A stretch of 64,000 nucleotides of DNA from Escherichia coli. Lineage in GTDB: Bacteria; Pseudomonadota; Gammaproteobacteria; Enterobacterales; Enterobacteriaceae. Below are positions 26,601-32,600 of the stretch, piece by piece; the stretch's first letter is position 1; every line of letters starts with the position of its first letter. The stretch lies in assembly GCF_030013205.1 (NCBI RefSeq), contig NZ_CP122648.1; one strand, written 5' to 3'. The position numbers were made by a program.

Positions 26601-29600
26601 CTTTATTCATAGAGCTATCGACTTTTTGCCCTACGCTTTCATTGGTAGTCTGCGCGTTGTTTTCCGCGTAGGCAGAGCCGGTCGCGACGGCAGAGGTCAA
26701 CATTACAGCCAGCAGAGTTTTCGAAATCTTCAGTCTTGTCATAGTCATCGATTTATTCCTGTATGTTTGCTCGTAATTTGAGCCTGGCAACACGAGGTTG
26801 CATTGCTGAATAGGGAGAGACTTCACCCTCTACAGAAGTCAATGGTCGCCATCACAAAAGCGATGGGTGATGAATAACGACCATTACAGCCTCTGAATCA
26901 GTTATTAATATCGGTAGAATGACAATCGACGGCTTTAGATACTGATATCTACGCATTGAACGGTATTTAACGCCGTCAGAAATGTCATCACTTTGTTAAA
27001 TATAGATCACAATTTTGAAACCGCTCGGGATATCAGCGAAAACATAAGCAAAAGTGAATGTTTTAAGAACATTCCGTAAGCGGCTAATAAGGAAGGGAAA
27101 TTGACAGGGCGCAGCGGCTACCGCGCCCTGGAGGCAAGAATTAATGCTCGCGGGTCTGGTGGAACTGAACGTCCGGATAACGTTCCTGTGCCAGGCGCAG
27201 GTTAACCATGCTGGTAGCGATGTAAGCGAGATTATCGCCGCCATCAAGCGCCAGTTGGCTTTCGTTCTTACGCTTGAACTCTTCAAATTTCTTCGCGTCC
27301 GCACATTCTACCCACCGGGCGGTGGCAACGTTGACTGATTCATATACTGCTTCAACGTTGTATTCGCTCTTCAGGCGCGATACCACTACATCAAACTGCA
27401 GCACACCAACCGCACCAACGATCAGGTCGTTGTTGGAGATCGGACGGAACACCTGCACCGCGCCCTCTTCGGAAAGCTGTACCAGCCCTTTGAGCAGCTG
27501 TTTTTGCTTCAGCGGATCTTTCAGGCGGATACGACGGAACAGTTCTGGTGCGAAGTTCGGAATACCGGTGAACTTCATCATCTCACCCTGGGTAAAGGTG
27601 TCGCCGATCTGAATGGTGCCGTGGTTGTGCAGGCCGAGGATATCGCCAGGATACGCTTCTTCAACGTGCGAACGGTCACCCGCCATAAAGGTCAGCGCGT
27701 CGGAGATAACCACATCTTTCGCGGTGCGCACCTGGCGCAGCTTCATGCCTTTTTCATATTTACCGGATACCACGCGCATAAACGCCACGCGGTCGCGGTG
27801 TTTCGGGTCCATGTTGGCCTGAATTTTAAATACGAAGCCGGTAAATTTGTCTTCGCTCGCTTGTACGGTACGGGTATCAGTCTGACGCGGCATCGGCGCA
27901 GGTGCCCACTCCACCAGGCCATCCAACATATGATCGACGCCGAAGTTACCCAGCGCAGTACCGAAGAATACCGGAGTGATTTCGCCCGCAAGGAACAATT
28001 CTTTGTCGAACTCGTTAGACGCGCCTTTCACCAGTTCCAGTTCGTCACGTAGCTGCTGTGCCAGATCTTCACCAACCGCAGCGTCGAGATCCGGGTTATT
28101 CAGCCCTTTAACAATACGGACTTCCTGAATCGTGTGGCCTTTACCGCTCTGATAGAGATAGGTTTCGTCTTTATAAAGGTGGTAAACGCCTTTAAACAGC
28201 TTGCCGCAGCCAATCGGCCAGGTGATCGGTGCGCAGCCGATTTTCAGCTCGTTCTCAACTTCATCGAGCAGTTCCATCGGGTCGCGGATATCACGGTCAA
28301 GTTTGTTCATAAAGGTGAGGATCGGCGTGTCGCGCAGACGGGTAACTTCCATCAGCTTACGGGTACGATCTTCAACACCTTTTGCGGCGTCGATAACCAT
28401 CAGGCAGCAGTCCACCGCCGTCAGGGTACGATAGGTATCTTCCGAGAAGTCTTCGTGCCCCGGGGTGTCGAGCAGGTTAACCAGGCAATCGTGATACGGA
28501 AACTGCATCACAGACGTAGTAATGGAGATCCCACGCTGCTTTTCCATCTCCATCCAGTCCGACTTAGCGTGCTGGTTGGAACCACGGCCTTTTACTGTAC
28601 CGGCGGTCTGAATGGCCTGTCCGAACAGCAGCACCTTCTCGGTGATGGTAGTCTTACCGGCGTCCGGGTGAGAAATAATTGCAAAGGTTCTTCTTTTCGC
28701 TACCTCTGCGGCCAAAAGGCTTGTCATAATTGTTGTCTCTTTAATTATGTACAATCATATGTACAAAGAAAAATTCATGCCGCTGATTGTACATTTTGGA
28801 GGTATCAGAGCATAGCAGAACATGATCAGTAGGTGTATTTGTAGCCAAAGAACATTTGTACATGCAGCAATCTTTGTTCTATTGACACTGTTTATTCATA
28901 CAGTTAAAAATAACACTGTATACAAACACAGTGTAGAGGGATTTTTATGCGTATTGAGATCTGCATAGCTAAAGAGAAAATGACTAAAATGCCAAGCGGT
29001 GCTGTGGATGCGTTAAAGGAAGAATTAACTCGACGCATCAGTAAGCGTTATGACGATGTAGAGGTGATCGTAAAAGCCACCAGCAACGATGGCCTTTCTG
29101 TTACGCGCACCGCCGATAAAGATTCAGCTAAAACTTTTGTTCAGGAAACTCTGAAAGATACCTGGGAGTCTGCTGACGAGTGGTTTGTTCATTAAGTTCA
29201 TCATCTCTGGACACCATTCACTTGTATTGACTTTAAGATCATTAAATTGTAATAATTCAAAAGGATGGGGCAGGTTTTTCCTCTTGTGCATGCAAGGGCG
29301 GCTCTGATAATGAACAGTAATATTTTACTGTTGAGCTTATGCTCACTGATCCTGCCGGGCAGGATGTTCAATGATTCCAATATATCCTGCCCCTTCCGCT
29401 TTTAAAAAGGATCTTTTATGCATGACAATATTTGGTTTACATATAAAGCCCGTATCCAAGCGCACCATCGACTAGAATGGCTTGAAAAGCACTCTCAATT
29501 TATCCTCGTTTGGTATGCTATATTGAGTGCGGTACTTTCAATTGTAACGTTGCGATTTCCAAAAGTTCTAGGAGATAACACAGATATCGTTGCGGCAATA

Positions 29601-32600
29601 CTTTCGGTGGCCCTACTGGGTATTTCGCTGATCGTATCTAACCTAGATTTTCGTGGTCGAGCAATAGCCATGAGAAGGAATTATATTGCACTACAGCGAC
29701 TCTATTTTGACATTACCACCAGTCAACAGTTAACTCTTGAACAGAAAGAAAAATATTTTAATTTGCTCAATGAGGTTGAGAATCACCGTGACATAGATGA
29801 TAAAATTTCAAGGGTAACTCAAGTTGGACTTACGACGAGGATCCCCACACAAAAAGAAAAAATAATTGTTATTTTATGGATATTACTTCGAATATTTACT
29901 ACTGCCGCCCTTTATATACTCCCATTAATATATCTTTGGATTGACTATGACTGCAAGCAGAATTTTTAAAAAGTCATTCTCGAAAAAAAACCTTCTAAAA
30001 GTATACACTGAAAAAATCAAAGAATCAGGAGCGATTGGCATAGATCGGATTCGCCCATCAAAACTTGATTTGACAATAAAAAATGAGATCGCTTTCATTT
30101 TTGAAAAGGTTAACTCTGGCAATTACAAATTTACAGCATATAAAGAAAAATTAATATCTAAAGGCGCTAACTCTACACCCAGACAGATTTCCATACCAAC
30201 TGCTAGGGACAGAATTACTCTTAGAGCTCTCTGTGAATGCCTTACGGAAATATATCCTAACTCCAGATTAAAACTACCACATACAGTAATTGACTCATTG
30301 AAAGAAGCATTAAACAGCAGTCTTTATGCTGAATATGCAAAAATAGATCTTAAAAGTTTCTATCCTTCAATTGAACATAAATTGATAATTAATGCAATAA
30401 AAAATAAAATTAGAAAAAAAGAAATTAGACAGTTAATAACATCATCATTAATCGTGCCTACTGTAAGTGGAACAACAGGAAGCAAAGGTATCCCGAATAA
30501 TACCAGAGGAGTACCTCAGGGATTAGCGATATCAAACATTTTAGCTGAAATATCACTATCTAATTTTGATGATGAAATCAATAAAATGCATGACATATGG
30601 TACATGCGATACGTTGATGACATTCTTATTTTAACACCAAAATATCAAGCAACAAAAATAGCTTCTCATATCATTGATAAGCTTCAATCATTAAATTTAA
30701 ACCCACATCCATTAAATGAAGAGAACTCAAAATCCAAAGTAGGCAGCTTGGATGAAAGTTTTAACTTTTTGGGATACCACATAGAAAATCGAGAATTATT
30801 GATAAAACATGAGAGCATTCTTAGATTTGAGTCATCTTTAGCAAGGATTTTTACTGCATACAGGCACGCTCTACTACAAGCTAAAAGTAAGCGTGATAAA
30901 GAACGAGCTGTTGCATATTGTCAGTGGAAACTAAATCTCAGAATTACGGGATGTGTGTTTGAAGGTAAACGATTGGGATGGGTATCGTACTTCTCACAAA
31001 TAACCTCAACAGCTCAACTTCGCTCTGTTAATCATACTATCAATAATCTTATCCGCCGATTCGGCCTTTCATCAGAAATAAAACCAAAGTCTTTGATTAA
31101 AACTTTCTATGAACTCCGCAGAGGTAGAGCGGAGACTTTTAAATACATACCTAACTTTGATAATTTACATATATCTCAGAAACGAGAACTTGTTTCTATG
31201 TGGATAGGTAAAGAGAAGGAAAAAAAACTTAGCAATAGTGAAATAGAGAGGAAGTTTAAATTTAAAATTGCGAAATCAGTAAAAGAGCTTGAAGAGGATA
31301 TCTCAGGAATATCATAGATATGTAATCCATTAAGTCCTTTAAATATACCGCAATAAACACACTATTTAAACTCACAAACCAGCCGCAGTATCCTGCCATG
31401 GCAAGTTACTGCGGCTTTTTATATTTAACGGATCAACAGCCAGATCAGCAGACACGCCACCACCGGCACAGCAAAATCCATCAGGCTTGCCACATCCCAC
31501 GCGCGCGGATCAAAACCGCCCCACCACGGCATATTCATTCGCTTGCCATGCCCGAACATTTCAATCCAGCGATATTCTGCCTGGGTGTGTTCACGCGCAA
31601 TGAAGAACGTACAACCGGCTATCGCCCCGTAAGCCCAGTTCCCGGTAAAAAGACCAATCAGTAGCTGCGCAGCCACAGCACAAAGCGCATGAAGGAAAGG
31701 TGTTATATCCATTTTCATCCTACCCAATAAAACGGGGCGCTCGGCCCCTTAATATTATTTAGACGCAAGCGCCGCCTCAATTGCAGATAATCTTTGTCTT
31801 AATTCTGCGTTTTCTTCTTCCAGTGCTGTTATCCTGTCGTCTGACTCTCTGGCTACCTGAACAAGCAAACCCGTTACGCCTGAGTAATCGACGGTATAGT
31901 ATCTTTCTCCCTCTTCTCCATCAGACCCATTGTCCCCGCTCTTGTACTTTATTGTGCTACCAACTGATTCAGGGATTGCATTAAGTGCCTCTTGCGCAAT
32001 AACGCCAGCATAAGGCATACCATTAGACTTGAGACGGTAAGTATACCCATTCATTAATCTGATGCGCTCAGTGGCATTATCAATAACCTGAATGTTTTCT
32101 TTAAGATCTCTGTCCGACACCTGGTCGAATGATGTAGCCTTGCATGGCCCGTTTATCTCAAGCTGATAGGTTTTATCTGGGTTCCTTTGTGCATAAAACA
32201 AAAAAAGCCCGCCATCATCCCTAATTTCATAAACAACTGGACGACTGGAATTTCCCCATAATAACGTCGACACACCAGAATACGCCGTACCTTGCGTGTT
32301 TAGTGTCATGGTCGACCCGTGATTAGCATATTTGATCTGCAATGAGTCTGTATTATCAAACTTAATAAGCGCGTTACTTCCCCGCACACCATACGACATG
32401 AGACAGTTCCCCATCTTAAGGTAACCATCACTGCCTGGAAAAATTAAAGTTCCTCCGTAAAGATCACTAAAGTCCCAAAAGATACCTTTTGTCCCGTTAT
32501 GTGTGACGATCCTCGTCATTGTATCTTTAGTACCATCAATATTTTTTCTGGTATATATGTCACTATAAGCGTTTTCCGTTTCACCAGTCTTATTTGACAA

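What the first reader, a model, noticed from the sequence alone, without database searches (positions are those of the whole stretch)
29196..31317. Unclassified reverse-transcriptase module: structured leader, overlapping 3-TM protein gene, RT
A 456-aa protein carries the full ordered set of RT palm motifs (SLYAEYAKIDLKSFYPSI; VPQGLAISNILAEI; YMRYVDDILIL with YVDD; FLGYHI) plus a C-terminal ITG...LGWVSYF region resembling the thumb-like region of retron/UG RTs. I do not see the retron NAXXH hallmark (NSSLY here), which points toward the UG/Abi (DRT) side rather than a classical retron. Its start overlaps the end of a 183-aa gene encoding a protein with three predicted TM helices, suggesting translational coupling and a membrane-acting effector. 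The 222-nt leader has a sigma70-like promoter (TTGACT-N17-TAATAA) and nested inverted repeats (GGGGCAGG pairing with CCTGCCCC, enclosing AACAGTAA-TATT-TTACTGTT and ATCCTGCC-G-GGCAGGAT), so it could be a template or scaffold RNA as in retron msr/msd or DRT ncRNAs. The module is markedly AT-rich, sits at the extreme attR end of the prophage on the strand opposite the late operon, and neighbours a LexA-boxed dinI-like gene. I cannot place this 3-TM-then-RT arrangement in a named system from memory.
Basis: partly seen in the sequence, partly recalled or inferred. Interest (0 to 1): 0.85.

Follow-up and report, generated by a model that had tools for sequence, protein, structure and literature searches.

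The report
Known DRT10 phage-defence system (Eco3DRT10)
This is a copy of DRT10, an already published bacterial anti-phage system in which a reverse transcriptase copies a 9-base stretch of a small RNA over and over into repetitive DNA and works with a membrane protein; the enzyme and RNA here are identical to the studied "Eco3DRT10", so the finding is real but not new.

Summary
It is DRT10 (UG17 reverse transcriptase + SLATT-5 membrane protein + upstream ncRNA).

- **RT family:** the RT matches PADLOC RT_UG17 end to end (E 5.9e-159). The 183-aa protein matches RT-associated SLATT / SLATT_5.
- **Identity to the studied system:** the 458-aa reading of the RT is exactly GenBank OKX54664.1, which Tang et al. 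2025 name as the Eco3DRT10 RT.
- **Identity of the DNA:** a contig found by exact look-up of that RT sequence is base-for-base identical to the window over the whole leader, the 137-nt ncRNA and the RT. It differs at one base in the SLATT gene (Q109 here, R109 there).
- **ncRNA numbering:** with position 1 at 29263, seven published nucleotide identities (U43, G44, U110, G111, C116, A117, U119) fit, plus G104. The template is CAAU-GAUUC-CAAU at 29369-29381.
- **Structure:** my own covariation test on 14 homologous leaders supports the fold (97.7% paired, 16 of 35 pairs compensatory).
- **Published function:** experiments on the identical RT and ncRNA show Ser456-primed synthesis of (GAATCATTG)n single-stranded DNA and phage defence that needs all three parts. 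How the DNA controls SLATT is still open.

Novelty: already known. Interest: low.

The parts
29227..29256 (+). Promoter of the ncRNA (and probably of the whole operon): -35 TTGACT at 29227-29232, extended -10 TG-n-AATAAT ending at 29256
   Evidence: Consensus scan, 10 of 12 matches with TG. The inferred RNA 5' end, 29263, lies 7 nt downstream (numbering check). Function as a promoter is inferred.
29263..29399 (+). DRT10 ncRNA, 137 nt. SL1 29267-29274 with 29386-29393 (plus outer pairs 29263-65 with 29395-97); SL2 29279-29301; Loop A 29302-29312; SL3 29313-29332; SL4 29333-29344; SL5 29349-29365; Loop B 29366-29385
   Evidence: MFE fold z = -4.66. Covariation on 14 homologues: 97.7% of cells paired, 16 of 35 pairs with compensatory changes, 0 of 500 shuffles as good, slid controls about 50% paired. 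Boundaries come from the published 137-nt RIP-seq species. With position 1 at 29263 the bases U43, G44, U110, G111, C116, A117, U119 match, as does G104 (read). Identical to the OKX54664-carrying record.
29369..29381 (+). Template and realignment site in Loop B: A = CAAU (29369-29372), B = GAUUC (29373-29377), A' = CAAU (29378-29381). A-B templates the cDNA repeat GAATCATTG
   Evidence: Sequence. Matches the published 9-nt cDNA motif and A-B-A' description for Eco3DRT10. A CAA...CAA pattern in the same aligned register, with a variable B, is seen in 12 of 14 homologous leaders (10 as the script's top hit, L002 and L011 by eye).
29418..29969 (+). SLATT-5 membrane protein gene (183 aa, three hydrophobic segments): the presumed effector
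   Evidence: PADLOC RTasSLATT 7.9e-57. NCBIfam SLATT_5 132.9 bits, cut-off 60. Hydropathy. One amino-acid difference (Q109 here, R109) from the OKX54664-carrying record.
29947..31317 (+). UG17 / DRT10 reverse transcriptase (456 aa from the ATG; 458 aa from TTG 29941). YVDD at 30610-30621; priming Ser456 codon at 31312-31314, the last codon
   Evidence: PADLOC RT_UG17 5.9e-159, residues 1-456 on profile 1-429 of 429. Pfam RVT_1. The 458-aa form is exactly OKX54664.1, which is the Eco3DRT10 RT. YVDD, R371 and S456 are invariant in 21 homologues down to 59% identity.
31381..31421 (+). Likely intrinsic terminator of the operon: 10-bp outer stem AGCCGCAGUA/UACUGCGGCU followed by UUUUU
   Evidence: Fold of 31318-31430, z = -3.07. 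Missed by the pattern scan because the loop is long. Function is inferred.

Best explanation
The locus is a DRT10 anti-phage system, and specifically the allele published as Eco3DRT10. It is carried as a cargo cassette of about 2.4 kb at the prfC-side end of a degraded lambdoid prophage.

**Steps shown by published experiments on the identical RT and ncRNA**
1. A 137-nt ncRNA is made from the leader.
2. Two RT molecules bind one ncRNA.
3. The RT at Loop B primes DNA synthesis from the hydroxyl of its own C-terminal Ser456 and copies CAAUGAUUC.
4. It stops at the SL5 boundary. The new DNA re-pairs with the downstream CAAU, and the cycle repeats.
5. The result is kilobase-long single-stranded (GAATCATTG)n covalently attached to the RT.
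6. The RT at Loop A makes only abortive products of about 10 nt.
7. Phage defence needs the RT active site, Ser456, the ncRNA stems and the SLATT gene.

**Inferred step**
The repeat DNA controls the SLATT membrane protein, which kills or arrests the infected cell (abortive infection). My preferred version is that DNA synthesis is constitutive and host exonuclease I (SbcB) keeps the product below a threshold. Infection, for example by a phage SSB-like protein, then disturbs single-stranded DNA turnover, so that the cDNA or one form of it activates SLATT.

**Also inferred**
One promoter (29227-29256) drives the ncRNA, SLATT and RT. The 23-nt overlap couples translation of the RT to SLATT.
For: **Family**
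- RT_UG17 full-length match and RT-associated SLATT match.
- SLATT_5 above the curated cut-off.

**Identity**
- The window's 458-aa RT is exactly OKX54664.1.
- The supplement of PMC12632851 names OKX54664 as the Eco3DRT10 RT and notes the two extra N-terminal residues, so S458 in the record is S456 in the paper.
- A contig found by exact look-up of that RT sequence is identical to the window over dinI, the leader, the ncRNA and the RT. It has one non-synonymous difference in SLATT.

**ncRNA**
- Stable fold.
- Independent covariation support.
- Published nucleotide numbers all fit.
- A-B-A' pattern is in register in homologues.
- Ser456, YVDD and R371 are invariant.

**Published mechanism**
- PMC12632851.
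- 10.64898/2026.06.29.735271.

**Effector control**
- In a UG17-A homologue, toxicity in a sbcB deletion strain needs the RT, ncRNA and SLATT, and an SSB-like phage protein is needed for activation (10.64898/2026.04.29.721553).
- An earlier sbcB interaction is noted in PMC9226505.
Against: - Nothing contradicts the identification.
- The identity of the cloned Eco3DRT10 SLATT to the window's SLATT is not verified. The genomic record differs at residue 109.
- For the effector step, the only measurement on this exact system showed less cDNA after Bas18 infection, not more. That fits the opposite model, in which cDNA restrains SLATT.
- The sbcB and SSB-trigger data come from other DRT10 homologues, not this one.
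- Whether SLATT-RT expression depends on read-through of the ncRNA is not tested. The Toro paper shows the ncRNA can act in trans in its homologue.
- The prophage here is a remnant. Expression in this strain is unknown.
Confidence: 0.95

Rival explanations
1. Same DRT10 system, but with the opposite control logic. The constitutive repeat cDNA holds SLATT inactive, acting like an antitoxin. Phage infection lowers the cDNA level and so releases SLATT to abort the infection.
For: For Eco3DRT10 itself, cDNA abundance fell after Bas18 infection. The authors propose exactly this model.
Against: In homologues, loss of exonuclease I (more cDNA) is toxic only when RT, ncRNA and SLATT are all intact. 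Mutants with an inactive RT or defective ncRNA but an intact SLATT gene are tolerated there. Both points argue that cDNA activates SLATT rather than restrains it. The fall in cDNA during infection could be a by-product of dying cells.
Confidence: 0.3
2. A retron: the RT makes msDNA from an msr/msd RNA in the leader, with the membrane protein as a retron effector (as in retron Ec48 with its 2TM partner).
For: The layout is superficially similar (structured RNA, RT, TM protein). There are weak hits to retron RT models (retron_St85_RT, 58.8 bits) and to PADLOC '2TM effector' models (E 1e-4).
Against: The retron model score is far below its cut-off of 235, whereas RT_UG17 scores 527.5 bits over the full length. 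No Rfam family matches the leader. The published product is protein-primed tandem-repeat DNA, not RNA-branched msDNA.
Confidence: 0.01
3. A group II intron or group-II-intron-like RT/maturase, with the leader being part of an intron RNA.
For: TIGR04416 group_II_RT_mat matches at 143.5 bits. The closest solved structure by sequence is the GsI-IIC RT. There is a faint GIIM hit.
Against: The score is below the curated cut-off of 300. No group II intron RNA is found by Rfam in the window. The RT gene is preceded by, and overlaps, a SLATT gene rather than lying inside an intron. The UG17 model fits far better.
Confidence: 0.01

Closest known systems
Eco3DRT10 (Tang et al. 2025, PMC12632851; Ramirez et al. 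2026, 10.64898/2026.06.29.735271)
   Same: The RT protein is identical to OKX54664.1. The leader and the 137-nt ncRNA are identical to a genomic contig that encodes this exact RT. The template CAAUGAUUC + CAAU, the Ser456 C-terminus, and the ncRNA-SLATT-RT gene order with overlapping genes are all the same.
   Different: The SLATT protein has Q109 where that genomic record has R109. Here the system is in its native setting, next to a dinI-like gene at the end of a degraded prfC prophage, rather than on a plasmid.
Other DRT10 / UG17 systems (Eco1DRT10, Eco2DRT10; Escherichia sp. E3659 UG17-A of Sanchez-Nieto et al. 2026)
   Same: The same tripartite design and telomerase-like A-B-A' repeat addition. 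All three parts are needed for defence.
   Different: They have different ncRNA sequences and stem-loop numbers, and different repeat units (for example AGTAATA, 7 nt, in E3659; AATCGTGT in Eco1). Eco1 primes from a Tyr. The UG17-B subtype has the RT-SLATT gene order. The sbcB and SSB-trigger results were obtained on these systems, not on Eco3.
DRT9 (UG28)
   Same: A class 2 UG RT with an upstream ncRNA of similar shape. It is protein-primed and makes long repetitive single-stranded DNA.
   Different: DRT9 makes poly-dA from a U-tract, is a hexamer, primes from Tyr and has no obligatory SLATT effector. The PADLOC Drt9 model scores only 69 bits here.
Telomerase (TERT + telomerase RNA)
   Same: It works alike: a short template next to an alignment segment, with the 5' template boundary set by a stem-loop and repeat-addition processivity.
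   Different: Telomerase primes on chromosome ends rather than on its own serine. It is a much larger protein with TEN/TRBD domains, has a 1:1 stoichiometry and is not a defence system. An evolutionary link is claimed by the authors and was not tested here.
Retron Ec48-type systems (RT + ncRNA + 2TM effector)
   Same: An RT, a structured ncRNA and a small membrane effector working as an abortive-infection module.
   Different: A different RT clade, RNA-primed branched msDNA and a different effector family.

Membership tests
DRT10 (UG17 RT + SLATT + ncRNA) | RT belongs to the UG17 group of UG/Abi reverse transcriptases | tested here: met
   PADLOC RT_UG17 at E 5.9e-159 and 527.5 bits, covering residues 1-456 on profile 1-429 of 429. 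The next best model (Drt3a) scores 126 bits. No tree was built.
DRT10 (UG17 RT + SLATT + ncRNA) | Adjacent SLATT-5 family membrane protein, tightly linked to the RT gene | tested here: met
   RTasSLATT 7.9e-57. SLATT_5 at 132.9 bits against a cut-off of 60. 23-nt gene overlap. Three hydrophobic segments.
DRT10 (UG17 RT + SLATT + ncRNA) | Structured ncRNA upstream of SLATT: a closing stem carrying several stem-loops, conserved among homologues | tested here: met
   MFE z = -4.66. 14-sequence alignment with 97.7% of cells paired, 16 of 35 pairs compensatory, 0 of 500 shuffles as good, and slid controls at 48-56% paired.
DRT10 (UG17 RT + SLATT + ncRNA) | [quoted passage not shown] | tested here: met
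   CAAU-GAUUC-CAAU at 29369-29381, 3 nt after SL5. The same register is kept in 12 of 14 homologues (10 by the script, 2 by eye). In a 20-nt loop the pattern alone is not statistically unusual (shuffle fraction 0.32 for the window), so the register and the match to the published motif carry the weight.
DRT10 (UG17 RT + SLATT + ncRNA) | Catalytic YVDD and a C-terminal hydroxyl priming residue (Ser456 in Eco3) | tested here: met
   YVDD at residues 222-225 and Ser as the last residue. Both are invariant in 21 homologues.
DRT10 (UG17 RT + SLATT + ncRNA) | Protein-primed tandem-repeat cDNA synthesis, and phage defence that needs all three parts | not testable with these tools
   Reported for the identical RT and ncRNA in PMC12632851 and 10.64898/2026.06.29.735271. 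Not measured for this strain or for the Q109 SLATT.
Eco3DRT10 allele | RT sequence equal to GenBank OKX54664 | tested here: met
   The exact-sequence look-up returns OKX54664.1 for the window's 458-aa ORF. The accession is given in the paper's supplement.
UG17-A subtype (Sanchez-Nieto et al. 2026) | ncRNA-SLATT-RT order with overlapping genes, Pseudomonadota host, RT in the A clade | tested here: inconclusive
   Gene order, overlap and host fit. Placement in the authors' RT tree and a match to their subtype ncRNA model were not tested.
Retron | Retron-clade RT with msr/msd RNA | tested here: not met
   retron_St85_RT at 58.8 bits against a cut-off of 235. No Rfam family matches the leader.
Group II intron RT/maturase | RT/maturase above the family cut-off, encoded inside a group II intron RNA | tested here: not met
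   TIGR04416 at 143.5 bits against a cut-off of 300. No group II intron RNA found in the window.

The most novel reading that the evidence does not exclude
In its native setting the DRT10 cassette may be wired to the SOS response.
- It lies directly after the stop codon of a dinI-like gene that has two LexA-box-like sites.
- The scan found no terminator between that gene and the ncRNA promoter.
- DNA damage or phage-induced single-stranded DNA could therefore raise ncRNA, SLATT and RT levels by read-through. That would add a transcriptional layer to a system already known to respond to single-stranded DNA metabolism (SbcB, SSB-like trigger).
- A weaker variant of this idea: the ncRNA's closing stem plus the U-run acts as an attenuator that sets SLATT-RT dosage.
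Probability: 0.1. Interest if true: 0.3.

Novelty: already known. Interest (0 to 1): 0.08.

Why it matters
The system itself matters. DRT10 is a compact bacterial enzyme that adds tandem repeats in the way telomerase does, and it has been proposed as a relative of telomerase's ancestor. How its DNA product controls a membrane effector is still an open question.

This window adds nothing new to that, because the RT and ncRNA are identical to the published Eco3DRT10.

What the window does provide is the native genomic setting:
- The cassette is about 2.4 kb and sits in a variable cargo slot between a LexA-boxed dinI-like gene and the tail-fibre genes of lambdoid prophages.
- It is present in 187 of 5426 complete E. 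coli genomes and is kept even in a degraded prophage.
- RefSeq still labels the two genes generically, and Rfam 15 has no family that matches the ncRNA. Genome scans will keep flagging this locus as unknown until those resources catch up.

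Tried and rejected
- **Rfam:** a permissive scan of 28700-31800 and a gathering-threshold scan of the whole window found no family on the leader. The only nearby hit was a chance snoRNA match (E 2.9).
- **Pfam:** sees only RVT_1 in the RT.
- **NCBIfam:** no RT model reached its cut-off for this RT.
- **PDB by sequence:** no DRT10 chain is present. The best match is a group II intron RT.
- **Phage collection:** no match even in the distant mode, so the cassette is not in deposited phage genomes.
- **Paper supplements:** term searches for 'Eco3' and for accession numbers returned nothing, because the name is typeset with a subscript. Reading the supplement directly gave the accession.
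- **Retron and group II intron readings:** rejected on model scores.
- **dinI link:** a functional tie between dinI and DRT10 is not supported as a family property. There is no dinI near DRT10 in 20 loci from other genera, and the dinI-like gene occurs in 1780 E. coli genomes, mostly without DRT10.
- **Repeated 9-mer:** TATCCTGCC occurs both in the ncRNA and in the terminator loop, but two copies is within chance (10 of 100 shuffles).
- **Neighbouring genes:** PADLOC gave no defence-family assignment for neighbouring prophage genes or for the alternative cargo in strain W4, apart from one weak nuclease-like hit.

Full report

Yes. The ORF list shows a 183-aa ORF at 29418-29969 (+). It also shows an RT ORF that runs to 31317, starting at TTG 29941 (458 aa) or ATG 29947 (456 aa). 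From the ATG, the RT start overlaps the upstream gene by 23 nt.

A hydropathy scan gives three hydrophobic segments in the small protein (about residues 27-45, 55-73 and 149-167) and none in the RT.

GC content falls to 0.32-0.37 across the module, against 0.51-0.55 in the neighbouring host genes.

The leader contains TTGACT at 29227-29232 and an extended -10 ending at 29256. The three nested inverted repeats are the stems of the minimum-free-energy fold of 29263-29399. That fold has -54 kcal/mol and z = -4.66, and 0 of 200 shuffles are as stable.

**2. What is it?**

Profile searches classify both proteins.
- The RT matches PADLOC RT_UG17 over its full length (E 5.9e-159, 527.5 bits). The next best model, Drt3a, scores 126 bits.
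- The small protein matches PADLOC 'RT-associated SLATT' (7.9e-57) and NCBIfam SLATT_5 (132.9 bits against a cut-off of 60).
- Pfam sees only RVT_1 in the RT.
- The retron, group II intron, Drt2, Drt3a and Drt4 models of NCBIfam all fall far below their cut-offs.

The UG17 + SLATT pairing was catalogued by Mestre et al. 2022 (PMC9226505). It was named DRT10 by Tang et al. 2025 (PMC12632851).

**3. It is the published allele.**

- The supplement of Tang et al. gives the Eco3DRT10 RT as GenBank OKX54664. It says the record carries two extra N-terminal residues, so that S458 in the record is S456 in the paper.
- An exact-sequence look-up of the window's 458-aa ORF returns OKX54664.1.
- I fetched a contig that encodes this exact RT sequence (GCA_001910935.1, LRLX01000203.1) and compared it with the window base by base.
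- There were 0 differences in the dinI-like gene, the 222-nt leader, the 137-nt ncRNA and the RT.
- There was 1 difference in the SLATT gene, at 29743. It makes Q109 here and R109 there.

Setting ncRNA position 1 at 29263, which is 7 nt after the -10 element, the nucleotides named in the papers have the right base in the window (papers).

| Published position | Role | Window coordinate |
|---|---|---|
| U43, G44 | Loop A | 29305, 29306 |
| G104 | contact of R371 | 29366 |
| U110 | fourth base of A | 29372 |
| G111 | first base of B | 29373 |
| C116, A117, U119 | A' | 29378, 29379, 29381 |

G104 was read from the sequence; the other seven were printed.

The template CAAUGAUUC followed by CAAU lies at 29369-29381. 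It is the reverse complement of the published cDNA unit GAATCATTG. SL3 is 25% GC, as published.

**4. Independent test of the ncRNA.**

I collected UG17 loci from other genera using an alignment of 21 RTs. I then aligned the regions upstream of their SLATT genes. The 13 relatives have RTs 58-70% identical to this one and come from Photorhabdus, Buttiauxella, Pseudomonas and Stutzerimonas.

RNAalifold recovers the same five-helix structure. Counting pairs on that structure gave these results:
- 97.7% of cells are standard pairs.
- 16 of 35 pairs have changes on both sides.
- 0 of 500 shuffles reach the observed paired percentage, number of compensatory pairs or covariation score.
- Sliding the 3' partners by 1-3 columns drops pairing to 48-56% and compensatory pairs to 3-5.

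The alignment was not fitted to the structure. The closing stem SL1 carries most of the covariation (9 of 11 pairs).

In Loop B, 12 of 14 sequences keep a CAA...CAA pattern in the same register, with a B segment that varies in sequence and length. Ten are the script's top hit and two (L002, L011) were read by eye. Taken one sequence at a time the pattern is not unusual for a 20-nt loop, so this is consistency rather than proof.

Ser456, YVDD and R371 are invariant in the 21 RTs.

**5. How it works.**

The following is shown in the literature for the identical RT and ncRNA.
- The RT binds the 137-nt ncRNA (RIP-seq).
- RT, ncRNA and dNTPs are sufficient in vitro to make kilobase-long single-stranded (GAATCATTG)n.
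- The DNA is covalently joined to the RT through Ser456.
- SL5 sets the 5' template boundary.
- Defence against phages such as Bas18 is lost with YVAA, S456A, scrambled stems or deletion of SLATT.

Cryo-EM adds further detail.
- Two RTs sit on one pseudo-symmetric ncRNA.
- Loop B gives the long product.
- Loop A gives abortive products of about 10 nt.

How the DNA controls SLATT is not shown.
- Tang et al. saw less cDNA after infection and suggest that the cDNA restrains SLATT.
- Sanchez-Nieto et al., working on another homologue, found that loss of exonuclease I is lethal only if the RT, ncRNA and SLATT are all intact. They also found that a phage SSB-like protein is needed for activation, and they suggest that accumulated cDNA activates SLATT.
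- I favour the second model. It rests on genetic dependence, and there mutants with an inactive RT or defective ncRNA but an intact SLATT gene are tolerated. It remains unsettled for this allele.

Three further points are inferred from the sequence.
- A single promoter probably serves the ncRNA, SLATT and RT.
- An AGGA lies 6 nt before the SLATT ATG.
- A hairpin plus U5 at 31381-31421 probably ends the operon.

**6. Context.**

RefSeq annotation of strains identical to the window shows a lambdoid prophage between prfC and yjjG.
- The integrase is at the yjjG end (52053-53276).
- The prophage is degraded: gpJ is truncated and the head genes and most tail genes are absent.
- In IHE3034 the same slot belongs to a prophage that still has tail, capsid and portal genes.
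- An imperfect repeat (ATTATGTACAA..ATATGTACA) at about 28744 and 53321 may mark the attachment sites. Only an 11-nt exact core was found, so this is an inference.

The module is present in 187 of 5426 complete E. coli genomes and is always chromosomal. In 180 of them it directly follows the dinI-like gene.

The dinI-like gene occurs in 1780 genomes. In those without DRT10 the similarity stops exactly at the dinI stop codon, 29195. On the other side, identity with the OKX record ends at about 31640. The cassette is therefore about 2.4 kb.

In strain W4 the same slot holds two unrelated genes of unknown function, so this is a variable cargo slot. No dinI lies near DRT10 in the 20 loci from other genera.

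**7. Novelty and score.**

The finding is correct and well read, but it describes a named and mechanistically and structurally characterised system, with an identical RT and ncRNA. Novelty: already known. Interest: 0.08.

The only open items specific to this window are the Q109 SLATT allele and the untested possibility of SOS-driven read-through from the dinI-like gene.

Noticed in passing
window 28888-28903 and 28916-28931: There are two CTGT-N8-ACAG LexA-box-like sites in tandem upstream of the dinI-like gene (28947-29195). The window has 4 such sites against 0.7 expected. The other two are at 46699-46714 (inside the XRE-family regulator gene, window 46488-47180) and at 51432-51447 (inside the DUF4365 gene).
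   Followed up: partly
window 29196 to about 31640; L025 5276-7167: The DRT10 cassette occupies a variable cargo slot between the dinI-like gene and the tail-fibre genes of lambdoid prophages. In E. coli W4 the same slot at prfC holds two different genes (344 and 252 aa). One matches phrog_6191 (unknown function) and neither matches any PADLOC family, so they could be an uncharacterised alternative cargo.
   Followed up: partly
L026 2786-3032 (E. coli AH19F006, prophage near aspS-yecD): A 92%-identical copy of the cassette sits in a prophage at a different chromosomal site, again after a (frameshifted) dinI-like gene. Its template loop reads CAACGGUUC-CAAU. [quoted passage not shown]
   Followed up: partly
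window 29743: The SLATT gene has one non-synonymous difference (Q109 here, R109) from a contig that encodes the Eco3DRT10 RT sequence. Q appears to be the common residue at this position in the homologous SLATT translations printed.
   Followed up: partly
window 50762-51781 (+): A DUF4365 protein lies next to the prophage integrase. It has a weak PADLOC match to a restriction-endonuclease-like N-terminal domain (Aga_REase-PNTD, E 5e-7) and no PHROG match. It is a possible second defence gene at the other end of the prophage.
   Followed up: partly
window 40973-43156: Between the Q antiterminator and the lysis genes lie an AraC-family regulator (-), a DUF6731 protein (41768-42709, phrog_7651) and a 147-aa protein (phrog_8552). 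All are of unknown function and have no PADLOC match. This looks like a moron-type insertion.
   Followed up: partly
window 31425-31727 (-): A 95-aa hydrophobic protein (phrog_1443, unknown function) lies between the RT terminator and the tail-fibre gene. The block of identity shared with other DRT10-bearing prophages ends inside this gene, at about 31640.
   Followed up: no
window about 35297-38700 and 40254-40328: The prophage is a remnant. gpJ is truncated and the head genes and most tail genes are missing. It carries an LPS core heptose(II)-phosphate phosphatase gene (38093-38686) and a tRNA-Gly(TCC).
   Followed up: partly
window 23403-23784 and 56395-56477: Four tandem copies and one further copy of the REP-type element that Rfam calls naRNA4 lie in host intergenic regions. 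They are ordinary E. coli repeats.
   Followed up: no
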